64,000 nt of DNA from Janibacter hoylei PVAS-1 (GTDB lineage Bacteria > Actinomycetota > Actinomycetes > Actinomycetales > Dermatophilaceae). The stretch lies in the NCBI RefSeq assembly GCF_000297495.1, contig NZ_ALWX01000068.1, positions 1 to 64,000 on the forward strand. Direction: 5' to 3'. This document shows positions 5,517 through 48,017 of the stretch, one piece after another; position 1 is the first letter of the stretch; every line of letters begins with the position of its first letter. The notes beneath the pieces were generated by a model that was not told the DNA's origin, made no database searches, and saw nothing but the letters and a program-made list of their open reading frames with translations. Both the position numbers and the translations under genes were made by a program.

Positions 5517-6386
5517 ATGTTCGATCAGCGGGTCGAGGCAGCGTGGAGGGACTTCCACGAGCGTCTCGTGGTGGCCATCGAACGGTTCGGCGAGGGCGAG
5601 ATCTTCCGGATCTCACTCGACCGCACGAGCGTCTACGAGGCGGGGGACGCTCCCTTCGTCGAGCTCAACGTCGTCCTGCCGCAGGTGCTCGTCGAGGTCG
5701 CCTCCAACATGACCTTGGCTCGTACGTGGCGCATGAGTCGCACCCAGCAGGCGAGGGTCCGCCGGCTGGGCATGGCGTGCCCGACGCGGCAGGAGCCGAC
5801 CTACGGCAAGTACTACGACATCACGCGGCCCGACGAGGCGGCCGCTGCGGTTATCACGGCACTGCGCGAAGGGTTCGGTGTCCTCGACCCGGCGCTCCTC
5901 ACCAGCCCGAGCCCCGTCCTGACTCCACCCACGCGCGAGCCCTGGGAGACCAGCCCGCTGCTCGCCGACGGCGCCCGACCCACCAGCCGGGCAGAGGTCA
6001 ATGCCCTCGTCGCCATCGCCCTTCGCCCGCTCGTGGGTGAGGTGGACACCACGGATGACGGTGACGCCATCGTCCACTTCCCCGGCACGTCGATCCTGGT
6101 GCGGCCGTCGAGGCGCGCACCGCGCATCCGCATGTGCTGCACGCTGCCGCACCACGAGCGTGACCTCGACGAGGCCACCCGGATCGCCCAGCGGCTCAAC
6201 GGGTGCATGCACGCGCTCAAGTTCGTCGTGCTCGACGACGAGGACTTCCTCGTCATGGTCGACATGCTCGCCAGACCCTTCGTGCCCGAGCACGTGCTGG
6301 AGCACGTGGAGCACCTCTTCCGGATCATCGACGGCTGGGAGGACGAGTTCCTCCCCGAGGCGCGCGATCGACAGGAGACGACGTGA
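5517..6386 (+). CDS. Tandem YbjN/T3SS-chaperone-like ('TY-Chap') domain protein.
   Basis: 289 aa from ATG 5517. It has two similar halves with an acidic C-terminus. Its stop overlaps the GTG of the next gene (GTGA), indicating an operon. Confidence 0.4.
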   Translation: MFDQRVEAAWRDFHERLVVAIERFGEGEIFRISLDRTSVYEAGDAPFVELNVVLPQVLVEVASNMTLARTWRMSRTQQARVRRLGMACPTRQEPTYGKYYDITRPDEAAAAVITALREGFGVLDPALLTSPSPVLTPPTREPWETSPLLADGARPTSRAEVNALVAIALRPLVGEVDTTDDGDAIVHFPGTSILVRPSRRAPRIRMCCTLPHHERDLDEATRIAQRLNGCMHALKFVVLDDEDFLVMVDMLARPFVPEHVLEHVEHLFRIIDGWEDEFLPEARDRQETT

Positions 6387-8559: not shown

Positions 8560-10050
8560 TCAGCCAGCGTCGACGAAAAGGGGCCGCGACGCCTCACCCG
8601 AGGCCAGCACCTCACCCATCGTGCGGTACTCACCCCGCGCGAGCACCTCGTCGAGCTTCGCCTGGTCGACGAGGTGCGCCGACTGCAGCTCACCACCGGC
8701 GAACTGCAGCAGCGACCCGACCGGCAGCGCCAGGTAGGGGCCAAAGGTGCGGTCGCACGCCTGCAGCTCGCCCGCGTCGATGTTGCGCAGCGCGCGCTCC
8801 TCGTCGGTCTGGGCCGACGGTGTGACGATCGACCACCCGGACCGCCGCGTGCCGTCGGTGAGGGTGTCCGTGCCGGGATCGAGCTCGTAGCGCTCCATGA
8901 TGAAGGCGCTGGGCTCACCCAGGACGATCGCGTCGAGCGCGGCCGACTGGATCGCGATGGTCTCGGTGGCCCTGACCGGCGCCGCGTCGACGCCTGCCTG
9001 GCGAGCCTTTTGCACCTGCTCGACCTGCCAGATGAGGGCGCCGGTGAGGTCGTCGGTCGTCCTCTCCCGATAGGCCTCGGGAGAGGAGAAGTCCGGCGTC
9101 GTGACGAGGAGGACGCCCCCTTCGTCCGTGGCCTCGAGCGTGTACGGCGCATACGACATCTGCAGCCGGGCGCCCGGCTCCAGCGGACCGGCCGCGCCGG
9201 CGGCGAAGGCCATGAGGACGCTGCCGGCGAGCGGCGCGAGCTGCGGGTGGGTCCGCGCGCGCAGGGTCACGCCGTCGACGACCTCTTCGATCGTCTCGGT
9301 GGTGGGTGCCGCCGGGCTCCTCTCGCCGATGGGAGCGCCCGCGCCGCGACCGTCGGCGTCGAGCAGTTGCCGGTCCGCATCGGTGACGGTGCCATCGGCG
9401 GACCGCGTCGCCCAGGCGCCGACGAAGCGGCCGCCGGCGACCCGCGCCACCGTCCCCGTGGGCAGCGTGAGCAGGGGCACGAGGTAGGGGGCCGACTGCA
9501 CGAGCAGCCCGGCGAGGACCTCAACCTCCTTGTTGCGCAGGAAGGACTTCTCGGCCGTGCGCACCAGCCAGCCGGAGTCGTCCTCCGACGTCGACGGGCG
9601 CCGCACGAGGACGAGCTCGTCGGTCCGGCCCTTTTCGACCACCGTCAGGGCCGCCTTGGTGAAGTGCACCCGCATCGACAGGTCGATCTCCTCGCCGTCG
9701 ACGTCCGCGCGGCTGAGCACGTCCGCCTGGGCGGCCTCGATCCACAGCGCGAGCGTCAGGTCGTCGGTCGTGGCGTCGACGAAGTCTTCCGCCGCGTAGT
9801 CCGGCGCCGTGATCGCGAACTGCGTCTCCCGGTCCTGCCGCAGCTGCCAGAAGGTGAAGCCCACACCGGTCCGCAGCCGGTCGCGGGTCTCGCCGGCCTC
9901 CTGGTAGCGGCGGTAGCGGTCGACGACCGGCCGGGCGAAGGGAGCCACCTCACCCGCGCAGCGCAGCGTCGCCACGGTGCCACCACCGAGGTCGACGGCG
10001 GGCTGGGGCTCGGGCTGGGTCGACGGGAGGGGGAGCGGGAAGGTCGTCAT
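8560..10050 (-). CDS. Hypothetical protein (496 aa) with internal ~150-aa repeats.
   Basis: Repeated motif 'SGW.V.T.....L.N.....L......PYL.LP.G'. No recognisable catalytic motifs. Confidence 0.5.
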   Translation of the reverse strand: MTTFPLPLPSTQPEPQPAVDLGGGTVATLRCAGEVAPFARPVVDRYRRYQEAGETRDRLRTGVGFTFWQLRQDRETQFAITAPDYAAEDFVDATTDDLTLALWIEAAQADVLSRADVDGEEIDLSMRVHFTKAALTVVEKGRTDELVLVRRPSTSEDDSGWLVRTAEKSFLRNKEVEVLAGLLVQSAPYLVPLLTLPTGTVARVAGGRFVGAWATRSADGTVTDADRQLLDADGRGAGAPIGERSPAAPTTETIEEVVDGVTLRARTHPQLAPLAGSVLMAFAAGAAGPLEPGARLQMSYAPYTLEATDEGGVLLVTTPDFSSPEAYRERTTDDLTGALIWQVEQVQKARQAGVDAAPVRATETIAIQSAALDAIVLGEPSAFIMERYELDPGTDTLTDGTRRSGWSIVTPSAQTDEERALRNIDAGELQACDRTFGPYLALPVGSLLQFAGGELQSAHLVDQAKLDEVLARGEYRTMGEVLASGEASRPLFVDAG

Positions 10051-10086
10051 GAGCGACAGCCTTGCGGCCCCGGCGACCCGCGTACA

Positions 10087-10116
10087 GGGGGAGCGCTCCC
10101 CGCATGTTGGCTGAGG
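10087..10116 (-). promoter_or_regulatory. Perfect 14-bp palindrome GGGGAGCGCTCCCC plus a CTGAGG box, 37 bp upstream of the 8560..10050 gene.
   Basis: The same composite motif recurs upstream of the SPFH operon at 22247-22278. Confidence 0.45.
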
Positions 10117-10726
10117 TGCGACGAAGGAGCCTCGAAGCCATTCGACCCCCGAGCGTTGTCGGTGGCCGCACCTGGTGTTGACCTCGTCGGTGGAGGACGA
10201 AGGGGAGTGGCGATGAGTGATCTGACGAAGAGCACGAGCAGCGGCCTCGGTGCGGGCCAGCTGGCCGAACTGACCCTGCGGGGTCTAGAGCAGTGGCGGA
10301 GCGCGCCCGGCAAGAGTCACTGCGCACCGGTGGCTCCGGCCCCGGGTGGCCGGGTCGGAGATCCTGCCCGACGATGCGGTGACCGGCTGGACCGGGGCCC
10401 GCACCCCGAGTGGTGACTCGACGAGCTGCTCTAGGGCGTCAGCCGCGACCTCGTCCCTTGTTGCGCAGCGGCAGGGTGAAGCGGTCGAGGTCCTGCCCGA
10501 TCGTCACCTTGCCGCGGTAGCCCTTCTGCGCATCGCGGCGGCATTGGTTCTTGTCGACCTTGGCCGCGCCGAGCCCGGCCCCCCTTCACGCCGATCGCCT
10601 CGTGCACGAGCAGGTCCGTGCGCTCGGCCATTTCGATGAGGCCCTGGTGATGTGGGGGCAGGACGTGGCTGTCGGAGGGCGACGCGCTGCACCTGATCTG
10701 AACCATGATTCACATATAGTGGACCC

Positions 10727-11635: not shown

Positions 11636-12661
11636 TCACGCCCCCCAGCCCACAAGCAGGACCAGCGCCAGCGAGGTGCCTGCGGCGATGATCGTCGAGA
11701 TCGTCGCGAGGGTGAGCACCTGCAGCGGCAGCGGCCACAGGTCACGGGCGCGGATGCCCATGCCGAGGCCGTACATGCCGGCCGCGAGCAGCAGCGTCGT
11801 CAGCACATCGGCGACCGACAGGACCCCCTGCGGCAGCAGGCCGCTCGTGCGGACCGCGACGGCGACGACGAAGGCGACGATGAACCACGGCACAAGGGGG
11901 GTGGTCGCTCCCTTCGCCCCGGGGGTGGTGCGGGCGAGCACGGCCGACAGCGGTGCGAGCAGGGCGACCCGGCCGAGCTTGACCGTCATGGCCAGCGCCA
12001 CGGCGGACGTGCCGATGAGCGAGCCCGCCGCGGCCACCTGCGCGACCTCGTGGATGCTCGCGCCGGCCCAGATCGCCGCCTGCTCATCGCTCAGGCCGAT
12101 GACTCCCGCGAGCCACGGCACGGCGGCGATCATCGCCGAGCCATAGAGGGTGACCATGGCGACGGCCAGGGCCACGTGCTGCTGCCTGGCCCGGACGGTG
12201 TCCTCGACGGCGGCGATCGCCGCGGCGCCGCAGATCGAAAATCCCGTGGCGATGAGCAGGACCAGCCCCTCCTCGAGGCCGAGGCGACGACCGATGTATC
12301 GCGTCCCCGTGAAGGTCGCGAGCACCGTGACCGCGATGACGACGAGCCCGCTCGGGCCGATCGAGACGATGTCGGCGAAGGGGAGGCGCAGCCCGAGCGC
12401 GGCCACGCCCAGCCGGAGGAGGAACTTCGTGGCGGCGTCGTGACCGGCGATGGCCGGGAGGGTGCCCAGGCGGCTGTTGACCACGACCGCGCCGATGGCC
12501 AGGGCGATGAGCAGGGGGCCGAGCAGCGGGACCACCGTGCTCAGGGCCAACGCCGTTGCGGCAGCGGCCAGCGGCGCGACGAGCGTCGCTGCCGACCGTC
12601 GCTCCCTGAGGAGCTTGCGCAGCAAGCGTCTCGAAGGGGGCCGTCCGGTCATCGTCTGCAT
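11636..12661 (-). CDS. yeiH: YeiH/UPF0324 family membrane protein (putative sulfate exporter).
   Basis: Polytopic membrane protein. Divergent from a LysR regulator, the classic yeiE-yeiH arrangement. Start taken at the internal ATG (MQTMTGRPP). Confidence 0.7.
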   Translation of the reverse strand: MQTMTGRPPSRRLLRKLLRERRSAATLVAPLAAAATALALSTVVPLLGPLLIALAIGAVVVNSRLGTLPAIAGHDAATKFLLRLGVAALGLRLPFADIVSIGPSGLVVIAVTVLATFTGTRYIGRRLGLEEGLVLLIATGFSICGAAAIAAVEDTVRARQQHVALAVAMVTLYGSAMIAAVPWLAGVIGLSDEQAAIWAGASIHEVAQVAAAGSLIGTSAVALAMTVKLGRVALLAPLSAVLARTTPGAKGATTPLVPWFIVAFVVAVAVRTSGLLPQGVLSVADVLTTLLLAAGMYGLGMGIRARDLWPLPLQVLTLATISTIIAAGTSLALVLLVGWGA

Positions 12662-12719
12662 GACCACCACGGTGCCCGTCATCGAGGCCGTCCAGTAGAC
12701 CCCGGTTACGCCACAGGTC

Positions 12720-12734
12720 ATAGTCTTTGGCTAT
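12720..12734. promoter_or_regulatory. LysR-type T-N11-A box ATAGTCTTTGGCTAT in the yeiH/lysR divergent intergenic region.
   Basis: Dyad ATAG-N7-CTAT overlapping the lysR start. Confidence 0.45.
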
Positions 12735-18212: not shown

Positions 18213-18315
18213 GCAGCCAACCTACTCAACAAAGTGAATAAGAGGAACCTCTCGGTCCCTGAGGAGGGAGGCCGTCCGCGGCCGACTGTCTCGAAGGGAC
18301 GCCTACCATCACCCC

Positions 18316-18876
18316 ATGGCCCTCCAGGACGCGATCCTCACCGCACTCGCCCACGACGAGTCCTCCGGCTACGACCTGGCCAAGGCCTTCGACGTGTCCG
18401 TCGCCAACTACTGGACCGCGAGCCCGCAGCAGCTCTACCGCGAGCTGGACAAGATGGAGGATGCGGGGCTGGTCACCGCGCGCACCGTCGCCCAGCCCAA
18501 GCGGCCGGACAAGCGGGTCTTTCGCCTGACGTCGGCGGGGCGCAAGGCGTTGCGGGCGCACACCCTTCGCTCGCCCAAGCCCTTGGCCGTCCGCGACGAG
18601 CTGCTCGTACAGGTCGCGGCGCTCGAGTCCGGTGACCCCGAGGCGATCCGCGAGCACGTCGTCGAGCGGATGGAGGCCTTCGAGGCGAAGCTCGCGATCT
18701 ACCGCCTCGTCGAGGAGCGGACCCTCGCCGGCCGCACCGAGGAGGAGTTCCTCGCGTCGGGCGAGCCGGTCGGGCAGTACCTCACCCTGCTGCGGGGGAT
18801 CAGCTTCGAGGAGGAAAACCTGCGCTGGGGCCGGCGGGTGCTCGCCGTCCTCGACGCTCGCTCGACCACCGACTGA
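18316..18876 (+). CDS. PadR-family transcriptional regulator.
   Basis: 'ILTALAHDESSGYDLAKAF......WTASPQQLYRELDKMEDAGLV' winged helix. Confidence 0.85.
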   Translation: MALQDAILTALAHDESSGYDLAKAFDVSVANYWTASPQQLYRELDKMEDAGLVTARTVAQPKRPDKRVFRLTSAGRKALRAHTLRSPKPLAVRDELLVQVAALESGDPEAIREHVVERMEAFEAKLAIYRLVEERTLAGRTEEEFLASGEPVGQYLTLLRGISFEEENLRWGRRVLAVLDARSTTD

Positions 18877-18881
18877 CCCCC

Positions 18882-19000
18882 TGCGCATTTCCCTAGGGAA
18901 ATGCGCACGCTTCCCGTATTTCCCTAGGGAAATGCGCACCCCGGCCGTATTTGCCTAGGGAAATGCGCACCCCTGCCGTATTTGCCTAGGGAAATGCGCA
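18882..19000. repeat. Four tandem copies (~31-bp period) of a 24-bp palindromic element (GCGCA)TTTCCCTAGGGAAATGCGCA.
   Basis: Copies at 18882-18907, 18915-18938, 18946-18969 and 18977-19000. The core TTTCCCTAGGGAAA is a perfect palindrome. A fifth copy, CGCATTTACCTAGGGAAATGCG, is at 34249-34270. The array sits in the convergent PadR/SPFH intergenic region. Confidence 0.8.
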
Positions 19001-19064: not shown

Positions 19065-20439
19065 TCAGCCCTGCGACTTCTCCTGCACGGCCTGGGCTGC
19101 TCGCTGCGCAGCCTGGTTGACCGCACCGCTCACCTGACGCTGCGCGCTGCGGGGAGCGGAGGCCTCGGACTGCAGCTGCGGCAGCAGCTGGGCCATGAGC
19201 AGCGTCGACAGGGCCGAGCTGTCGCCCGAGCCGGCGTCGGTGTGGACGATGACCGGGCGCGGGGCGTCGTCGGCCAGCGTGGCGCCGACGTCGAGGCGGC
19301 GCCGGGCCAGCTCGTAGCCGAGGACCGCGCGGTTGTCGCGGTAGGCCGTGGCCAGCTGCTCCTGCGCCTTGGCCTCACCCTGGGCCGCGACGAGGTTGGT
19401 CCGCGCGCGGGTCTCGATCTCGTAGCGGATCTTCTGCGCCTCGGTCTCGCGCTCCTCGAGCATCTGCGCGACGTCCTTGCGGGCCTTGTTGAGCGAGGCC
19501 TGGACCTCGACGACCTTGGCGTCGCGGACCTTCTTGGAGCGCTCGATCTCCAGCAGCAGGGTGTCGATGCGGCGCTTGCGGGTCAGCTCCCACTCCTTTT
19601 CGTAGGCCACGAGCTCCTTGGCCACCCGCTCACGCGTGGCGAGGTGCTCCCGGTACTGGTCGGGCAGCTGCACGTCGGGGATGTTGCAGCCCATGATCTG
19701 CACGCCGTAGCGGGTCAGCTGACGGTTGAGCAGGTCCTGCATGTCCTTGACGTCGCTGCCGCGCAGGTCGTAGGCCTGCTCGGTGCGCACCTGCCGGCTG
19801 CGCTGCCGGATCGCGTCCTGCACCGAGTTGCTCAGCACGAGGTCGAAGTTGCCCGCACCGATCGTCTGGACGAAACGGATCGCGTCGACGATGCGGAAGC
19901 GCAGGAAGAACTCGATCGACTTCAGCGGCACGTTTTCGTGCGTCGGCGAGCTGAGCACCGGTGCGGTGTAGGGGATCTCGGTCGTCACGTCGACGACATA
20001 GGCGACCCGGGCCCACGGGTGCCACAGGTAGTGGCGGCCGGGGGGAGAGGCCGGGCCCGGAGATGGCGCCGAACTTCGTCAGCACCCCGACCGTGCCCTC
20101 CTCGATCTCGACGATCGAGGAGCGCCACCACCACAGTGCCGACAGGAGGAAGGCGAGGATCGCGACGAAGATCGCGAGCCCGCCGAGTGCGCCGTGGTCG
20201 GTCGCCGCGAGGAAGATCCCGCTCAGCAGGGCCCACGCGCCGAACCAGATGAGCGAGGTCCAGCGCATGCCGCGCTTGTCCTTGGGGATGACAACCGGCA
20301 CGACCGAGCCGGAGTCACCGCCGCGCAGGTAGCGGGCGACGTCGCCCCACCCGGAGACGACCTCCTTGATCGAGCTCATGCCCTGGCCACGCACTGCGCG
20401 GACCGCCTGCTCCATCATCTGGTCACTCATTGCGCTCAC
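19065..20439 (-). CDS. SPFH/band-7 domain membrane protein, with one G-run frameshift near 20035.
   Basis: N-terminal TM plus 'IVEIEEGTVGVLTKFG'. Continues in the other frame with '...EIPYTAPVLSSPTHENVPLKSIEFFLRFRIVDA...' and a long coiled-coil C-terminus. Confidence 0.7.
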
Positions 20440-22183
20440 CCTCGCTCATGTCGTTGATGGTGACCTGCGGCGCGGGGGTCACCCGCGGCGCCGGCGGTGC
20501 CGGCGGGGTCGGCTCGTCGACCGCCGGCGGGACCGGCGGGTTGGTGCCCGGCGGCGGGGGCGGCGGTTCCTCCCCTTCGCCCGGCAGGTCGATCTCCTCG
20601 GTGACCGACTGACGGATCTCGTCGAGACGCTGCTCGCCGGCCGGGTCGGTCTCCGTCTCGGTGACCGGCAGGATCTCGACCTCGGTCTCCTCCGGAGCCT
20701 GGAGCAGCTCGGCGATCTCGGACTCGCGCTCGGCGACCCGCTCGGCGATGTCGGCCTGACGGGCCCGGATGGCCTCCATGTCGTCGGCGCTGAAGAGCTG
20801 GCTGCTCTGACCGCCGACGAGCTGACGGGCGATCTGCAGGTAGTCGACGCCCTCGGACTCGCCACCCACGCGCACGATCTGGGGGAGCGACCCGGAGACG
20901 CCCTCCATCTTGTCGAGCATGTCCTGCTGATAGCGGTAGTCGAGGATCTCCGGGGCGAGCGCCGCGCTCAGCGCACGGATGTCGAGGGCCTGCGCCTCGA
21001 GGAGCGCCGCGTTGGCGTGGGCCTCGGACTCGGACTCGACGAAGCGCTGGCGGGCCACGGCATTGGCGCGGTTGGTCTCCCGCTCGAGGGCGGTGTCCAT
21101 CTGCGCCTGGTAGCGGGCGATGTCGGCCTGGATCGCCGAGAGGTTTTCGTTGAGCGAGGCGAGGTCCTTGTTGAGGTCACCCTCGTTCTGCTCCTTCTTC
21201 AGCCCCAGCTCGTAGTCGTAGGTGTAGGCCTCCTTGGCCACCCGGATCATCTCCGGCGCCGCGAGATCCATCCGGTACTCCTGCGCGGAGGGCTCGGCGT
21301 GGGTGATGTTGGCCGTCGTCAGCTCGACCGCGGGAGCGAACTGCGCGTTGAGCTGGTCGAGCAGCCGCGCCGTGCTCTCGCCGACGAGGTCGTAGATGCC
21401 CGAGGCCTCCTGCTCGTAGATCAGGGAGCGGGTCGTCTCCGAGATCGCGTTGTTGAGCTTGTCCTGGAAGCCCTGCACGGCACCGAGGACGAAGACGAAC
21501 TCGCGCGCGCTGACGATGCGGAACTGGAGGAAGAGGTCGACCGATGCCTGCACGCCGGACTTCGTGGGGGCCGAGCGGATCGGCGCGTTGAAGGGGTACT
21601 CGCGCGTCGTGTTGACGATGTAGGAGACCCGCTTCCACGGGTTCCACAGGGTCACCCGACCGGGACCGACCTCGGCCTCGACCTTGCCGAAGCGGGAGAT
21701 CAGCGCCGTGCAGCCCTCAGGCACCATGACCATGCCCTGGCGCCACCACAGGAAGGCCGCGGCGACGACCACGAGCAGCCAGTAGTGCGGGCCGAAGACC
21801 GCCAGGCTGATGCCGAAGGGCAGCAGCACGACCCCGCCGGCGACGCCGATGAGCACGAGCAGGATGGCCGGCGCCATCGCCTGCAGCCGGCGCCCCTTGG
21901 GCATGACCATCGGCGTGATGACGTGGACCGGGCCGCTCTGGCCCATCTCGTAGCGGCTGCGGCTGAGCGCCTCGGCCGCGTCGTCGAGGGCGACGTGGTC
22001 GGCATTGATCCGGGTACCGGCGGACCCCCCTTCGCCCCGTGCCGCGGGGAAGTCCCGCGCGTTGAGGTCGAAGCCGGCGCTCTGCTGCACCTGCCCGAGT
22101 GCCTGGTCGACCGCCTGCCCCACGCCGGCCGCGTCCGCGACCTGCCTGGCCCTGTCCATGAACTGCTGTGCTGGGTTGCTCAC
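20423..22183 (-). CDS. SPFH/band-7 (flotillin/YqiK-like) protein, 586 aa, with a Pro-rich C-terminus.
   Basis: 'MVMVPEGCTALISRFGKVEAEVGPGRVTLWNPWKRVSYIVNTTREYPFNAPI...SVDLFLQFRIV' SPFH core plus coiled coil. Overlaps the downstream SPFH gene start by 17 bp. Confidence 0.8.
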   Translation of the reverse strand: MSNPAQQFMDRARQVADAAGVGQAVDQALGQVQQSAGFDLNARDFPAARGEGGSAGTRINADHVALDDAAEALSRSRYEMGQSGPVHVITPMVMPKGRRLQAMAPAILLVLIGVAGGVVLLPFGISLAVFGPHYWLLVVVAAAFLWWRQGMVMVPEGCTALISRFGKVEAEVGPGRVTLWNPWKRVSYIVNTTREYPFNAPIRSAPTKSGVQASVDLFLQFRIVSAREFVFVLGAVQGFQDKLNNAISETTRSLIYEQEASGIYDLVGESTARLLDQLNAQFAPAVELTTANITHAEPSAQEYRMDLAAPEMIRVAKEAYTYDYELGLKKEQNEGDLNKDLASLNENLSAIQADIARYQAQMDTALERETNRANAVARQRFVESESEAHANAALLEAQALDIRALSAALAPEILDYRYQQDMLDKMEGVSGSLPQIVRVGGESEGVDYLQIARQLVGGQSSQLFSADDMEAIRARQADIAERVAERESEIAELLQAPEETEVEILPVTETETDPAGEQRLDEIRQSVTEEIDLPGEGEEPPPPPPGTNPPVPPAVDEPTPPAPPAPRVTPAPQVTINDMSEGERNE

Positions 22184-22246
22184 CCGTGCCCCTTTGCTCG
22201 TTCCCTGAGTTGCGGCGAGTGTCCCACAAGGGGTTTGGCTGCATCA

Positions 22247-22330
22247 GGGGGAGCGCTCCCCATCTTCGCTCTCTGAGGCGGTCGCGCAGCGCTCCCCACC
22301 TTCGCTCCCTGAGGAGGTCGCGCAGCGACC
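22247..22330 (-). promoter_or_regulatory. Two tandem ~40-bp units containing the palindrome GGGGAGCGCTCCCC and CTGAGG boxes, upstream of the SPFH operon.
   Basis: Perfect palindrome at 22247-22261, with CTGAGG at 22273 and 22309. The second unit has a half-site GCGCAGCGCTCCCCA. The same composite occurs at 10087-10116. Confidence 0.45.
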
Positions 22331-22342
22331 GTCTCGAAGGGG

Positions 22343-23486
22343 CTACACCCGCGGCCGCCCCTGCCGCAGCCGCACGAGCGCCAACGGCAGCGTCAGCAGC
22401 GCGAAGGCGCCGGTCACGGCGAGCGCCGTCGGGAAGTCCGCGGCGACCGCGATCGCGCCGACGACCACCGAGCCGATGGCCGAGCCGAGGTCGAAGCCGA
22501 CATTCCAGATCGAGCTGGCCAGCCCGAGGTGGCGTCGGCTCACGGAGGCGAAGGAGATGACGAGGGTGAGGTTTTGCAGCGCCCCGTAGGCGCTGCCGAG
22601 GAGCAACGCGCCGACGATCAGCACGGGCACGGACTGCTCGTGCACGGCCCACGCCATGCCGCCGACGCCGACGACGGTGAGCAGGACGAAGGGGGCGAGG
22701 AACCGCTCCGCCCCGAGCCGGTCCGCGACGCCGCCGATCCACCACCGGAAGATCGCCGCCATGAGCTCCATGAGCGCCAGCGCCGGGATGACGACCGCCG
22801 GGTCGCGCACCATCTGCGGGCCGAAGGTCAGCACCGCTCCGCCGGCGATCGTCACGCCCAGGAGGAGGACCATCGGGCGCAGCAGTGTGATCGTCGCGCG
22901 GGCCGTGCTCGCGCCACCCACGTCCGTGCCGCGGTCGCTGCCGGAGGGGAAGGTCTCGAGGGCCCGCCCGAGCGCCAGGGCCGCCGGCACCCCGAGGAGG
23001 GGGATGGCGCCCGCGACGAAGACGGGGACGAAGCCGACCGTCTCCGCGACCCACGACCCGAGGGGGAGCAGCACGACCTGCGGGCCGGCGATCGCCAGAC
23101 CGTAGGCACCGACCGCCTTGCCCCGCGTCTCCGGGTCGGACAGCTCGGCCACCGCGGCGCTGCCGGCGACCGTGAGGATGCCGAAGCCCACCCCGCGCAC
23201 CGCAGACAGCGCGAGGATCGAATGGAGTGCATCGCTGGCCGCCAGGCCCAGCGACGGGGCGCCGAGCAGGACGAGCCCGGTGGCCAGGGTCGGCCCCCAG
23301 CCGAAGCGACGCAGCAGCGCCGGGACGGTGAACTGCGTGAGGACGGTGACGAGGAGGAGCACGCCGTTGACGAGGCCGGCGCCCCCCTTCGTCGGCGCCA
23401 CCGCGCACCGCCCACAGGGGTGCCACGGGCATGAGGACGGCGAACCCGCTGAAGCCCAGGAAGGTCGCCATCAGCAGCGCGGGCAT
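22343..23486 (-). CDS. MFS transporter, with one C-run frameshift near 23395.
   Basis: 12 predicted TM segments. The N-terminus 'MPALLMATFLGFSGFAVLMPVAPLWAVRGGA' is in a different frame from the body. Confidence 0.6.
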
Positions 23487-26515: not shown

Positions 26516-27489
26516 GCACGCCGGGAGCGCTCTCCTTCGGGCGCACCCGGCTACCGGACGAGCAGGGCACGGCCCTGCGGCGGGCCATCCGGCTCGAGTG
26601 GGTGACCCTGGGGTACATGGCGACCTGCATCGTCGTGGTCTTTTTCGCGATGGGCAGCTCGCAGGCGATGAAGGCGGCCTGGGTGGAGGACATGCTCGCC
26701 CTCATCCCGCCGGTCGCCTTCCTGTTCGCGCAGCGGCGCGCCCGACGCCCGGTGGACGCCGAGCACCCCTACGGTCACCATCGCGCCGTCGGTGGTGGAC
26801 ACCTGGCAGCCGCGGTCGCCCTCCTGGGCATGGGCGTCTACCTCATCGTCGACTCGGCGATGGGTCTGCTGCACGGTGAGCACCCTCCGGTCGGGACCGT
26901 CGACCTCTTCGGACATGCGGTGTGGGCGGGCTGGGTGATGATCGCCGCGATGGCCTACACCGCCATCGGCCCCGTCGTCCTGGGACGGATGAAGCTGCCG
27001 CTCGCAGACACCTTGCACGACCGGGTCCTGTACAACGACGCGGACATGCAGAAGGCGGACTGGCGCACTGCGACCGGGACGATCGTCGGCGTCCTAGGCA
27101 TCGGGGTCGGGCTGTGGTGGGCGGACGCGGTCGTCGCGATCGCGATCTCCATGTCGATCATCCGCGACGGGTGGACCAACGTGCGACACGCCTCGGGCGC
27201 GCTCATGGACGCCCAGGCCCGCACGGTGGACGGGACGCGACGCCACCCCCTGACCGAGCAGGTCGACGAGGCACTCGAGGAGATCGGGTGGGTGCACAGC
27301 AGCCACAGCCGCGTGCGCGACATGGGGCACGTCTTCCATGTGGAGAGCTTCGTCGTGCCGCACGCGGGTCACATCGCCGACATCGACGACCTCGAGCACG
27401 CCGCCCAGGTAGCGCGTGACCTCGACTGGAAGGTCGACGACGTCGTCATCGTCCCCGTTCGGCAGATCCCCGAGACCTTCACCCGCTGA
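26512..27489 (+). CDS. Cation diffusion facilitator (CDF) family transporter.
   Basis: 6 TM plus a C-terminal cytoplasmic domain. 'HGHHRAVGGGH' metal-binding region. Confidence 0.75.
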   Translation: MSTPGALSFGRTRLPDEQGTALRRAIRLEWVTLGYMATCIVVVFFAMGSSQAMKAAWVEDMLALIPPVAFLFAQRRARRPVDAEHPYGHHRAVGGGHLAAAVALLGMGVYLIVDSAMGLLHGEHPPVGTVDLFGHAVWAGWVMIAAMAYTAIGPVVLGRMKLPLADTLHDRVLYNDADMQKADWRTATGTIVGVLGIGVGLWWADAVVAIAISMSIIRDGWTNVRHASGALMDAQARTVDGTRRHPLTEQVDEALEEIGWVHSSHSRVRDMGHVFHVESFVVPHAGHIADIDDLEHAAQVARDLDWKVDDVVIVPVRQIPETFTR

Positions 27490-46166: not shown

Positions 46167-48017
46167 TCAGGCCTCGAAGCGACCTTCCTCGAGACGGGCC
46201 TTGACCGTCCCGAGGAAGCGGGCCGCGTCGGCGCCGTCGACCACGCGGTGGTCGTAGGTGAGCGCGAGGTACATCATCGACCGGATCGCCAGCGTCTCGC
46301 CGCCGTCGTCTGTCGTGATGACGACCGGGCGACGCACGATGGCGCCGGTGCCGAGCATCGCGACCTGCGGCTGGTTGAGGATCGGGGTGTCGAAGAGTGC
46401 ACCCCGGCTGCCGGTGTTGGTGATGGTGAAGGTCCCACCCGACAGGTCGTCCGGCGTGATCTTGTTGTTGCGCGTGCGGTCGGCGACGTCCGCGATGGCC
46501 CGGGCGAGGCCGGCGACGTTGAGGTCACCGGCGTTCTTCACGACCGGCGTGAGCAGGCCGCGCTCGGTGTCGACCGCGATCGAGAGGTTTTCCTGACTGT
46601 GGTAGACGATCTCGTCGCCCTCGACGCTGGCGTTGACGCCCGGGTGCGCCTTCAGGGCCTCGGCCGTGGCCTGGGCGATGAAGGGCAGGAAGGAGAGCTT
46701 CGTGCCCTCGCGCTGGGCGAACTCGGCCTTCGCGGCGTCGCGCACGCGAGCCACCTTGGTCATGTCGACCTCGACGACCGTCGTCAGCTGGGCGGAGACC
46801 CGCAGCGACTCGACCATCCGCTCGGCGATGACCTTGCGCAGGCGGGTCATCTTCTCGCGGGTGCCGCGCTTGGACTGCGGGACGTTGGACTCCAGACCGG
46901 CCGGGACGCCCGCGGGGGCCGCAGCAGCGGGGGCGCCAGCCGGAGCGGCGGCCGGAGCAGCAGCCTCCTGCGGCTGGTTCTTCGCCTTGGCCGCCTGGAG
47001 GACGTCCTGCTTGCGGATGCGGCCACCGATGCCGGTGCCCGTCACCTGGGCGAGGTCGATGCCGTTGTCGGCAGCGAGCTTGCGCACGAGCGGGGTGACG
47101 TAGGCGGCGGCGTCACCACCGGAGGCGGCGGGCACCTCCTGCTTCGGCTCGGCCTTGGGCTCCTCGGCCTTCGGCTCCTCCTTGGGGGCTTCCTGCTTCG
47201 GCTCCTCCTTGGGGGCTTCCTGCTTCGGCTCCTCCTTGGGGGCCTCCTGCTTCGGCTCCTCCTTGGGCTCCTCGGCCTTCGGCTCCTCCTTGGGCTCCTC
47301 GGCCTTCGGCTCCTCCGTGGGCGCCTCCTGCTTCGGCTCTTCGGCCGGGGCGGACTCGGTCGAGCCGCCACCGGAGCCACCGACGATCGCGAGGTCGGCG
47401 CCGACCTCGACCGTCTCGTCCTCCTGGACGAGGATCTTGGTCAGGGTGCCCGCGACGGGGGAAGGGATCTCGGTGTCGACCTTGTCGGTCGAGACCTCGA
47501 GCAGCGGCTCGTCGACCTCGACGGTGTCGCCCTCGGCCTTGAGCCACCGCGAGACGGTGCCCTCGGTCACGGACTCGCCGAGAGCCGGCATCGCCACGGT
47601 CGTGCCGTCGCCGTCACCGGAGGAGGACTCGGCGGCCGGGGCCTCCTCGGCCTGCGGCTCCTCGGCGGGAGCCTCCTCGGCCTCGGCGGCGGGCTCGTCG
47701 GCCTGCGGCTCCTCGGCGGGGGTCTCCTCCGCAGGAGCCTCCTGCGCGTCGTCGCCGGAGTCGGAGGAGGCCGGTGCGTCACCGTCACCGATGACGGCGA
47801 GGTCGGCGCCGACCTCGACGGTCTCGTCCTCCTCGACGAGGATCTCCTGGATCGTGCCCGCGACGGGCGAAGGGATCTCAGTGTCGACCTTGTCGGTCGA
47901 GACCTCGAGCAGCGGCTCGTCGACCTCGACCGTGTCGCCAACATTCTTGAGCCATCGCGTCACGGTGCCCTCGGTCACGGACTCGCCCAGTGCCGGCATG
48001 GTCACCCGCTCAGACAT
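46167..48017 (-). CDS. sucB: Dihydrolipoamide acyltransferase (E2 component) with two lipoyl domains.
   Basis: Two '[13 protein letters not shown]' lipoyl-lysine boxes, a PSBD, and catalytic '[14 protein letters not shown]'. A long PKEEPKQEA-type linker repeat is present. Confidence 0.9.
47155..47340 (-). repeat. Coding tandem repeat (27-bp unit, ~6 copies) encoding the (PKEEPKQEA)n linker of E2.
   Basis: cttcggctcctccttgggggcttcctg repeated. Confidence 0.8.

What the first reader, a model, noticed from the sequence alone, without database searches (positions are those of the whole stretch)
10087..10116. Shared 14-bp perfect palindrome GGGGAGCGCTCCCC (+CTGAGG box) upstream of two unlinked minus-strand genes: candidate regulon
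The composite motif CCTCAG-(9-11 nt)-GGGGAGCGCTCCCCCTG occurs 37 bp upstream of the 496-aa repeat protein (8560..10050). It occurs again 64 bp upstream of the tandem SPFH/flotillin-like operon (22247-22278), where a second degenerate copy follows in tandem. A perfect 14-bp palindrome twice in 64 kb of 70% GC DNA, both times in a promoter-proximal position on the same strand, points to a common transcription-factor operator. The partners would be co-regulated membrane-stress/raft (SPFH) functions and the uncharacterised repeat protein.
Basis: seen in the sequence. Interest (0 to 1): 0.6.

Follow-up and report, generated by a model that had tools for sequence, protein, structure and literature searches.

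The report
Promoter palindrome beside a common repeat
Two Janibacter genes share a short conserved palindrome at the upstream edge of their promoters, probably a docking site for an unidentified regulator, while the "CTGAGG box" beside it is just part of a common hairpin repeat.

Summary
GGGGAGCGCTCCCC occurs exactly twice in the window, at 10088 and 22248, both times as the 17-mer GGGGAGCGCTCCCCCTG on the minus strand. The window is Janibacter hoylei.

The composite motif splits into two unrelated things.

1. The CTGAGG/CCTCAG box and the "second degenerate tandem copy" belong to an abundant hairpin repeat I call JanREP. Its form is CCCTTCGAGAC, a covarying stem, then TCCTCAGGG. I found about 25 copies in 178 kb of Janibacter-type DNA. 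At site 2 it forms a 36-bp variable-number repeat. It is not an operator element.

2. The palindrome is rare and conserved.
- The 17-mer occurs once in the whole J. indicus representative genome, upstream of the 496-aa ortholog.
- The arms GGGGAG/CTCCCC are invariant upstream of both genes in every sampled species of the J. hoylei / sp. CX7 / J. indicus / J. anophelis / J. limosus group, while the two central bases and the flanks vary.
- It lies 24-25 nt upstream of a conserved extended -10 at the SPFH operon.
- It marks the upstream limit of conserved sequence at both genes.

The best reading is a binding site for a dimeric transcription factor. In J. hoylei it resembles the LacI-family CebR box. 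The factor is unknown. PadR is untested, and a common regulon is not demonstrated. This is an ordinary kind of feature.

The parts
10088..10101 (.). Site 1 palindrome GGGGAGCGCTCCCC. With 10085-10087 it forms the 17-mer GGGGAGCGCTCCCCCTG on the minus strand.
   Evidence: 18 nt (GGGGAGCGCTCCCCCTGT) are identical in Janibacter sp. CX7, J. indicus and J. anophelis, while the following spacer differs by about 40%.
10102..10143 (-). Its 3' end abuts the palindrome.
   Evidence: Covariance model R1 scores 18.8 bits, E = 4e-4 over an 800-bp search. It is the GGCT...AGCC outer-stem subtype also seen in L008 and L006.
10058..10063 (-). Hexamer AAGGCT (AAGTAT or AAGGAT in relatives), 24 nt downstream of the palindrome and 7 nt before the ATG. 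Either a -10 element of a leaderless mRNA or a ribosome-binding site; undecided.
   Evidence: Read from sequence. Inference only; the consensus promoter scan found nothing.
8560..10050 (-). 496-aa protein made of two homologous halves, with an Imm33-like domain.
   Evidence: Pfam PF24719, E = 8e-10. The halves align at E = 1e-9. No PADLOC or NCBIfam match.
22248..22261 (.). Site 2 palindrome GGGGAGCGCTCCCC (17-mer at 22245-22261 on the minus strand).
   Evidence: The arms are invariant in 8 orthologous loci. The centre is CG, TG, AG or TC.
22252..22327 (-). 36-bp tandem repeat (2.1 units). Each unit is the 3' half of JanREP plus the left half of the palindrome. It contains the 'second degenerate copy' and two CTGAGG boxes.
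   Evidence: Tandem Repeats Finder. A J. hoylei-like metagenome genome (L171) has 3.1 units.
22300..22345 (-). Full JanREP copy starting directly after the stop codon (22343-22345) of the upstream MFS transporter gene.
   Evidence: R1 scores 68.9 bits. Alignment and fold.
22218..22226 (-). Extended -10-like element TGG-GACACT, 24 nt downstream of the palindrome.
   Evidence: In alignment A2 the columns T48, G49, A52 and T56 are invariant across 8 loci. These are the TGn and the hexamer positions 2 and 6 of TGn-nAnnnT. Promoter function is inferred.
19065..22183 (-). Two-gene SPFH/Band 7 operon: 20423-22183 and about 19065-20430. The window has a 1-base indel in the second gene relative to GCA_004025845.1.
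   Evidence: Pfam PF01145. Gene calls. Indel.
12597..12642 (-). JanREP copy with no palindrome, upstream of (and overlapping the over-called N-terminus of) the YeiH-like gene.
   Evidence: R1 scores 62.8 bits. The ORF translation ...RPPSRRLLRKLLRER... appears.
18250..18302 (-). JanREP copy with a longer inner stem and no palindrome, between the PadR gene and the divergent SnoaL-like gene.
   Evidence: R1 scores 52 bits. Sequence.
18316..18876 (+). PadR-family regulator, convergent with the SPFH operon.
   Evidence: Pfam PF03551 and PF10400. It is adjacent to the SPFH operon only in Janibacter-type loci.

Best explanation
The inverted repeat GGGGAG-NN-CTCCCC is most likely the binding site of a dimeric transcription factor encoded outside the window.

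Position. It forms the upstream edge of the promoter of the 496-aa Imm33-like gene and of the SPFH operon. At the SPFH operon it is centred about 43-44 bp upstream of the inferred transcription start. That start is placed from a conserved extended -10 element, TGn-nAnnnT, lying 24-25 nt downstream of the palindrome. From that position a bound protein could touch RNA polymerase to activate, or block it to repress.

Sequence type. In J. hoylei both sites are the perfect palindrome GGGGAGCGCTCCCC. This matches 12 of 14 positions of the LacI-family CebR box TGGGAGCGCTCCCA.

What is not part of the site. The neighbouring CTGAGG box and the 'tandem degenerate copy' belong to JanREP. This is an abundant hairpin repeat that has repeatedly settled in, and expanded within, the free space just upstream of the palindrome.

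Shown: sequence, rarity, conservation, spacing, and the repeat family.
Inferred: protein binding, the promoter and start site, and co-regulation of the two genes.
For: - Rarity. The 17-mer hits 114 stretches in 596 Gb. It occurs once in the J. indicus genome, upstream of the 496-aa ortholog. No other GGGGAG..CTCCCC occurs in the Janibacter DNA I held.
- Site 1 conservation. 18 nt are invariant in four species while the adjacent spacer diverges. In J. anophelis a different upstream neighbour (a toxin-antitoxin pair) has replaced everything up to the palindrome.
- Site 2 conservation. The arms are invariant in 8 loci across about 5 lineages. The central dinucleotide and the 24-25-nt spacer vary in sequence but not in length. 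The invariant columns fall on the key positions of an extended -10.
- G6 and C9 are invariant although they could not pair in a hairpin with a 2-nt centre (read from the sequences). This favours sequence-specific recognition of double-stranded DNA.
- In L125 the palindrome starts one base after the upstream stop codon, so it bounds the functional unit.
- Elsewhere in Actinobacteria about two thirds of the 17-mer hits look intergenic. In Brachybacterium two copies sit between an ABC-transporter binding-protein gene and a LacI-family regulator.
- The CebR box is documented in PMC5332605 and PMC4358012.
- JanREP evidence.
Against: - No binding data and no mapped transcription start. The consensus promoter scan found nothing.
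- No candidate regulator was identified, and no LacI-type gene was seen in the window, though only by a crude motif check.
- The central CG that LacI-type proteins need is lost at the SPFH site in all lineages except J. hoylei.
- Shared 6-bp arms between two GC-rich palindromes are not rare by chance.
- Identity of the two sites needs only one or two substitutions from the CX7-like state, or gene conversion between sites 12 kb apart that both carry JanREP.
- At site 1 the 'hexamer' could equally be a ribosome-binding site.
- The palindrome is absent upstream of the J. melonis ortholog and of non-Janibacter SPFH operons.
Confidence: 0.45

Rival explanations
1. There is no shared function. Each palindrome is a neutral or locally structural leftover in repeat-rich intergenic DNA. 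The identity seen in J. hoylei arose by a point mutation or by gene conversion between two nearby JanREP-flanked sites.
For: - Janibacter intergenic regions are crowded with palindromic repeats: JanREP, a second repeat type in J. indicus, and the 31-bp palindromic array at 18878-19000.
- Both palindromes abut JanREP copies.
- Repeated palindrome arms are common in this window.
- Perfect identity is seen only in the J. hoylei lineage.
Against: - The arms are invariant across about 5 lineages while the flanks and spacer diverge.
- The palindrome persists where the upstream neighbour or JanREP is absent (L005, L007, L125).
- The distance to the -10-like element is fixed.
- Most JanREP copies have no such palindrome.
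Confidence: 0.25
2. The element acts as a nucleic-acid hairpin rather than a protein site. It would be a terminator or insulator after the upstream MFS or GH3 gene, or a stabilising stem at an mRNA 5' end.
For: - At the SPFH locus it follows a co-directional gene.
- In J. anophelis it extends to CGAAGGGGAG-TC-CTCCCCTTCG, which folds at -28.6 kcal/mol with z = -3.6.
- Variation at the centre with fixed arms also fits a loop.
Against: - No U-tract, and the terminator scan found nothing.
- The 14-mer alone folds at only about -10 kcal/mol, with z between -0.7 and -1.2.
- Site 1 lies between divergent genes, so there is nothing to terminate.
- G6 and C9 are conserved although they cannot pair.
- The inferred SPFH -10 lies downstream of the element, so it would not be transcribed from that promoter.
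Confidence: 0.12
3. One reading: the adjacent PadR-family protein binds the palindrome and co-regulates the SPFH operon and the 496-aa gene.
For: - Among the loci sampled, PadR adjacency and the palindrome are both confined to Janibacter-type SPFH loci.
- PadR-type regulators and Band-7 proteins are noted genomic partners in Psp-type envelope-stress systems, with roles undetermined (PMC7619361).
Against: - PadR's own upstream region has no such motif, although PadR proteins usually autoregulate (from memory).
- Known PadR operators are of the ATGT-N8-ACAT type (from memory).
- PadR is convergent with the operon, not divergent from it.
- The correlation rests on a single clade.
Confidence: 0.1
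4. The site is specifically a LacI-family, CebR-like repressor operator, which would place both genes in a sugar-responsive regulon.
For: - 12 of 14 positions match TGGGAGCGCTCCCA.
- The same palindrome lies next to a LacI-family gene in Brachybacterium.
- A GH3 glycosidase gene precedes the SPFH site in sp. CX7 and L125.
Against: - The central CG is lost at SPFH sites in CX7, indicus, anophelis and limosus-type loci.
- The target genes are not sugar genes.
- No LacI-type gene was found nearby.
- A search with the DNA-binding domain gave nothing useful.
Confidence: 0.15

Closest known systems
CebR/CelR box (TGGGAGCGCTCCCA), operator of a LacI-family repressor in Streptomyces and Thermobifida
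   Same: A 14-bp perfect palindrome with an identical central 12 bp, GGGAGCGCTCCC. It is promoter-proximal and occurs in few copies per genome.
   Different: The outer bases are G and C, not T and A. The targets are an SPFH operon and an Imm33-like gene, not cellulase or cellobiose genes. The central CG is not conserved at the SPFH site in sister species. No cognate regulator was identified.
Repetitive extragenic palindromes / BIMEs and mycobacterial MIRU-type intergenic variable-number repeats (closest to JanREP and the CTGAGG box)
   Same: A short (about 45 nt) imperfect palindrome present in many intergenic copies, with compensatory stem changes. Presence varies between strains, and it forms tandem arrays of variable copy number between co-directional genes.
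   Different: It has its own sequence and no Rfam family. No associated transposase was sought. No GTAG-type head was recognised by eye.
Class II-type activator sites (dimer site overlapping or abutting the -35 region)
   Same: A palindrome centred near -43.5 of a promoter with an extended -10 and no recognisable -35.
   Different: The start site is inferred, not mapped. Repression from the same position is equally possible.
ECF-sigma envelope-stress promoters (GGAAC-N17-CGTC)
   Same: This motif occupies the corresponding upstream region of SPFH operons in 13 of 22 non-Janibacter relatives. Its GGGGAAC lies at the same distance from the downstream TGn-nAnnnT element as the Janibacter GGGGAG.
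   Different: Janibacter loci lack the motif (0 of 8).

Membership tests
LacI-family CebR-type operator | 14-bp palindrome close to TGGGAGCGCTCCCA | tested here: met
   12 of 14 positions match at both J. hoylei sites. The consensus is taken from PMC5332605.
LacI-family CebR-type operator | Central CG kept in orthologous sites | tested here: inconclusive
   Kept at site 1 in 4 species. At the SPFH site only the J. hoylei lineage has CG; the others have TG, AG or TC.
LacI-family CebR-type operator | Cognate LacI-family regulator present | tested here: inconclusive
   No LacI-like helix-turn-helix was seen in window ORFs, but the check was a crude regular expression. The domain search was uninformative.
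LacI-family CebR-type operator | Targets are sugar uptake or catabolism genes | tested here: not met
   The targets are Band 7/SPFH and Imm33-like proteins.
REP-like intergenic hairpin repeat (for the CTGAGG box) | Many dispersed copies outside coding sequence | tested here: met
   About 25 strong covariance-model hits in 178 kb, three of them in the window.
REP-like intergenic hairpin repeat (for the CTGAGG box) | Hairpin maintained by compensatory changes | tested here: met
   94% of cells are paired, against 82% in shuffles and 31-52% when partners are slid. 6 pairs show double changes and none shows a one-sided (G-U) change.
REP-like intergenic hairpin repeat (for the CTGAGG box) | Presence and copy number vary between related genomes | tested here: met
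   At the SPFH upstream region there are 0 copies (L007, L125), 1 (CX7, L008), or tandem units: 2.1 (window), 3.1 (L171), 2 (L009).
REP-like intergenic hairpin repeat (for the CTGAGG box) | Associated REP-type (RAYT) transposase | not tested
   No whole genome was available.
REP-like repeat (for the palindrome itself) | Multi-copy in the genome | tested here: not met
   It occurs only at the two loci in all Janibacter DNA held. The 17-mer is single-copy in J. indicus. Variants with other centres could not be counted genome-wide.
Intrinsic terminator | GC-rich stem followed by a U-tract, downstream of a gene | tested here: not met
   The scan found 0 sites. There is no T-run, and site 1 lies between divergent genes.
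ECF-sigma promoter | GGAAC-N16-18-CGTC | tested here: not met
   Present in 0 of 8 Janibacter loci and 13 of 22 relatives.
PadR operator | Bound by the adjacent PadR, and the motif is also at the padR promoter | tested here: inconclusive
   The motif is absent from the padR upstream region. Binding cannot be tested with these tools.
Known RNA family | Rfam covariance-model match | tested here: not met
   No hit at gathering threshold in the window. Only chance-level hits with the E-value threshold.

The most novel reading that the evidence does not exclude
In the J. hoylei / J. indicus / J. anophelis / J. limosus group, the ancestral ECF-sigma envelope-stress promoter of the SPFH operon was replaced by a promoter that depends on the palindrome. 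The same site was recruited to an Imm33-like tandem-domain gene 12 kb away. Together they would form a small lineage-specific regulon, possibly run by the PadR partner of the Band-7 operon, linking membrane-scaffold proteins to an immunity-type protein.
Probability: 0.12. Interest if true: 0.5.

Novelty: new member of a known kind. Interest (0 to 1): 0.3.

Why it matters
If the palindrome is a real operator, it gives a handle on how SPFH/Band-7 operons are controlled in Micrococcales. Band-7 domains, like PadR-type regulators, are noted genomic partners of PspA whose roles are undetermined. It would also give the uncharacterised Imm33-like tandem protein a first functional association.

Separating out JanREP matters in practice. 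This repeat creates false composite motifs, inflates ORF N-termini (the YeiH-like gene here), and produces variable-number repeats that could be used for strain typing.

Neither result is surprising in kind.

Tried and rejected
- Rfam, at gathering and E-value thresholds: nothing.
- Consensus promoter and terminator scans of both regions: nothing.
- Regular-expression search for a LacI-type helix-turn-helix among window ORFs: nothing convincing.
- Last homology search, using the DNA-binding domain of the Brachybacterium LacI regulator to find a Janibacter counterpart: only 5 short fragments, uninformative.
- PADLOC and NCBIfam scans of the 496-aa protein, both SPFH proteins and PadR: no defence-system or equivalog assignment.
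- The near-match CGGGAGCGCTCTCC at 26522 is inside a coding sequence, so I dismissed it.
- I considered that the palindrome is a regular tail of JanREP. I rejected this because most copies are followed by unrelated sequence.
- I considered an ECF-type promoter in Janibacter. The motif is absent.
- Literature search for Janibacter REP elements: nothing relevant.
- One fold (L125:2610-2655) used wrong coordinates and should be ignored.

Full report
**Source.** Both flanking proteins are encoded with exactly these sequences on contig PIPF01000007.1 of GCA_004025845.1. The 496-aa protein is named as a Janibacter hoylei PVAS-1 hypothetical protein. The window matches that assembly apart from single-base indels.

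**Observation.** GGGGAGCGCTCCCC occurs at 10088 and 22248 only; no shuffle contained it. Both copies extend to GGGGAGCGCTCCCCCTG on the minus strand, which is the strand of both downstream genes.
- Site 1 lies 37 nt before the ATG of a 496-aa protein. That protein has two homologous halves and an Imm33-like domain.
- Site 2 lies 64 nt before the GTG of the first of two Band 7/SPFH genes. It sits downstream of a co-directional MFS transporter gene.
- The composite CCTCAG-N9/11-GGGGAGCGCT is present three times on the minus strand.
- Recurrence of a 14-bp palindrome is unusual but not extreme. 2 of 40 Markov simulations contained some repeated palindrome, and repeated 6-bp arms are common. The case therefore rests on comparative data.

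**The CTGAGG box is part of a repeat family.**
- Searching the orthologous loci showed that CCTCAG is the 3' arm of a roughly 45-nt element. Its form is CCCTTCGAGAC-GGTCGC-NNN-GCGACC-TCCTCAGGGAnCG.
- It folds as one long hairpin. Six pairs show compensatory double changes, for example GGTCGC/GCGACC, GCTTGC/GCAAGC, GGCCGC/GCGGCC and GGTTGC/GCAACC. The outer stem switches between CCCT/AGGG and GGCT/AGCC.
- 94% of cells are paired, against 82% in shuffles and 31-52% when partners are slid. No pair is kept through a one-sided (G-U) change, which hints at a DNA-level palindrome.
- A covariance model finds about 25 strong copies in 178 kb of Janibacter-type DNA. Three are in the window: 22300-22345, 18250-18302 and 12597-12642, all on the minus strand.
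- With filters off, the model also scores the flank of site 1 (10102-10143) at 18.8 bits, E = 4e-4, as a degenerate copy.
- There is no Rfam match. I call the element JanREP.
- Most copies are followed by unrelated sequence, so the palindrome is not a normal part of it.
- At the SPFH locus its presence differs between relatives:
  - none in L007 and L125;
  - one copy 18 nt upstream of the palindrome in sp. CX7;
  - one copy 62 nt upstream in L008;
  - two 34-nt units in the limosus-type contigs;
  - a different repeat type in J. indicus.
- The J. hoylei '36-bp tandem' has 2.1 units here and 3.1 in the closely related metagenome genome L171. Each unit is the 3' half of JanREP plus GGGGAGCGCT. 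The 'second degenerate copy' is therefore half a palindrome produced by repeat expansion.

**The palindrome is rare and conserved.**
- A scan of one genome per species (596 Gb) for the 17-mer gave 114 stretches, essentially one per genome in scattered taxa.
- The only Janibacter genome hit was J. indicus, once, exactly upstream of the 496-aa ortholog.
- GGGGAG..CTCCCC occurs nowhere else in the Janibacter DNA I held.
- Site 1:
  - GGGGAGCGCTCCCCCTGT is identical in J. hoylei, sp. CX7, J. indicus and J. anophelis. The following 24-nt spacer differs by about 40% between the two pairs.
  - In J. anophelis the upstream neighbour is a different gene pair (PIN toxin and antitoxin). Sequence similarity to the other species starts at the palindrome.
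  - More distant orthologs show GGGGGCAGCGCTCCCC abutting the ATG (L170), only GGGGAGTACT (L168), or nothing (J. melonis).
- Site 2:
  - Eight loci from about five lineages keep the arms GGGGAG/CTCCCC.
  - The centre is CG (J. hoylei, L171), TG (CX7, L125), AG (J. indicus) or TC (J. anophelis, limosus-type).
  - The next 24-25 nt vary freely in sequence but not in length.
  - They are followed by invariant T, G, A and T at the positions expected for an extended -10 (TGn-nAnnnT; GACACT in J. hoylei, AAGGAT in most others). A conserved leader and ribosome-binding site come after that.
  - In L125 the palindrome begins one base after the upstream stop codon.
  - This places the palindrome at about -50 to -37, centre near -43.5, of an inferred promoter that has no recognisable -35.
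- At site 1 a hexamer (AAGGCT, AAGTAT or AAGGAT) sits at the same 24-nt distance and 6-7 nt before the ATG. It could be the -10 of a leaderless mRNA or simply the ribosome-binding site. I cannot tell which.

**What kind of site.**
- The J. hoylei sequence matches 12 of 14 positions of the CebR box TGGGAGCGCTCCCA. That box is the operator of a LacI-family repressor in Streptomyces and other Actinobacteria (PMC5332605, PMC4358012).
- Among actinobacterial hits of the 17-mer, about two thirds look intergenic.
- In three Brachybacterium species the 17-mer lies in the same intergenic region, as two inverted copies in two of them. That region separates an ABC-transporter binding-protein gene from a divergent regulator, which Pfam places in the LacI family (L049).
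- The same binding-protein family follows the motif in Tessaracoccus and Occultella. In Knoellia the motif lies next to a TetR-family gene.
- The exact palindrome therefore behaves as an operator elsewhere.
- Against a strictly LacI-type reading in Janibacter, the central CG is not kept at the SPFH site outside J. hoylei. The invariant parts are the arms, including G6 and C9, which could not pair in a hairpin.
- As RNA the 14-mer is an unremarkable hairpin (about -10 kcal/mol, z between -0.7 and -1.2). Only J. anophelis has an extended strong stem.
- There is no U-tract, and site 1 lies between divergent genes. A terminator therefore cannot explain both sites.

**Why JanREP abuts the palindrome at both sites.** The simplest account is that the palindrome is the upstream limit of sequence that must be preserved. 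Repeats that land in these short intergenic gaps end up next to it. The different repeat types and distances in different species point to independent events. Gene conversion between the two JanREP-flanked sites, 12 kb apart, could also have made them identical in J. hoylei. From the CX7-like state this needs only T to C at the centre and C to G in the flank.

**Candidate regulator.**
- None was identified.
- PadR is adjacent to the SPFH operon only in Janibacter-type loci. PadR and Band-7 are each noted genomic partners of PspA, with roles undetermined (PMC7619361).
- However, the padR upstream region lacks the motif, and the correlation rests on one clade.
- In 13 of 22 non-Janibacter relatives the SPFH operon carries GGAAC-N16-18-CGTC, an ECF-sigma-type promoter motif, against 0.25 expected by chance. 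None of the 8 Janibacter loci has it.
- Control of this operon has therefore changed in the Janibacter group.

**Verdict.**
- The palindrome is most likely a transcription-factor site at two promoters (confidence about 0.45). Whether one factor co-regulates both genes is untested.
- The CTGAGG box and the tandem copy are by-products of a REP-like repeat (high confidence).
- This is a new member of known kinds and of modest interest.

Noticed in passing
window 12597-12642(-), 18250-18302(-), 22300-22345(-); degenerate copy at 10102-10143(-); many copies in L003, L005-L008, L125, L170: JanREP is an abundant hairpin repeat of about 45 nt: CCCTTCGAGAC, a covarying stem, then TCCTCAGGG. It has no Rfam family. 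I estimate roughly one copy per 7 kb in Janibacter-type DNA.
   Followed up: yes
JanREP copies listed, read against the gene calls: In all 6 informative cases (between co-directional genes) JanREP points the same way as the genes. Its sense strand carries ACCUCCU, identical from memory to the anti-Shine-Dalgarno end of 16S rRNA. The opposite strand would read GAGGAGGT, a strong ribosome-binding site. Selection against stray ribosome-binding sites could explain the orientation.
   Followed up: partly
window 22252-22327 versus L171 about 2800-2915: The 36-bp repeat upstream of the SPFH operon varies in copy number: 2.1 units in the window and 3.1 in a J. hoylei-like metagenome genome. The limosus-type contigs L009 and L010 have an independent 34-nt duplication at the same place.
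   Followed up: partly
window 18878-19000: A 31-bp unit repeated four times, each holding the palindrome TGCGCATTTCCCTAGGGAAATGCGCA. It lies between the PadR stop codon and the terminator-like hairpin of the convergent SPFH operon. L171 has 3 copies. J. indicus and sp. CX7 have different palindromes with the same CTAG-type centre at the same place (GCATTGCCGTAGGGCAATGC; CTGCAAGACCCTAGGGTTCTGCAG). Function unknown.
   Followed up: partly
L126-L128, L131, L138, L140, L141, L144, L145, L147, L155, L156, L164 (upstream of SPFH orthologs): 13 of 22 non-Janibacter SPFH operons carry GGAAC(C)-N16-18-CGTC, against 0.25 expected by chance. This is an ECF-sigma (envelope-stress type) promoter motif. It is absent from all 8 Janibacter loci.
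   Followed up: partly
window 11636-12721(-): The N-terminus of the YeiH-like ORF (...RPPSRRLLRKLLRER...) is a translation of a JanREP copy. The true start is probably further downstream. The same over-call appears in the sp. CX7 annotation (L003 4768).
   Followed up: no
window about 19990-20080, and one further indel in each of L001 and L002: The window differs from GCA_004025845.1 only by single-base indels. One of them splits the second SPFH gene into two frames in the window (454 aa intact in the assembly). This is probably a sequencing or assembly error in one of the two versions.
   Followed up: partly
L172 about 2780-2920 and 6200-6330; L008 about 2640-2690: A second repeat type is present: GGTCTCGAGGCTCG...CACCTCGACCAACG. 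It includes a run of five GGTCTCGAGGCTCGGGCG units downstream of the J. indicus SPFH operon. The flank of site 1 (TCGCACCTCAGCCAACATG) resembles its 3' end.
   Followed up: no
L049 5456-5567, L075 503-614, L109, L108 1470, L073 2155 and 2213: In Brachybacterium the 17-mer lies upstream of an SBP_bac_8-type ABC transporter, as two inverted copies in L049 and L075 (one was found in L109). A divergent LacI-family regulator is present at this site (shown for L049). The same transporter family carries the motif in Tessaracoccus (one copy) and Occultella (two direct copies). This is a likely LacI-type regulon.
   Followed up: partly
window 10214-about 10420(+): A small ORF divergent from the 496-aa gene (MSDLTKSTSSGLGAGQLAE...) is shorter than 80 aa here. 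It is 109-126 aa in sp. CX7 and J. indicus, so it is possibly disrupted in J. hoylei. In J. anophelis it is replaced by a PIN toxin-antitoxin pair.
   Followed up: no
L003, L005, L170 (neighbourhoods of the 496-aa gene): The 496-aa gene sits in a variable region. Depending on the genome, its neighbours are toxin-antitoxin pairs, a Fic protein, an Apyc1-like metallo-beta-lactamase, a reverse transcriptase, an HsdM fragment, or Wadjet JetB/JetC genes. This resembles a defence island. The protein itself has no PADLOC hit.
   Followed up: partly
window 47130-47339: A 27-bp unit repeated 7.8 times lies inside the 621-aa gene on the minus strand, which has a lipoyl-domain-like motif. It probably encodes Ala/Pro-rich linker repeats.
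   Followed up: no
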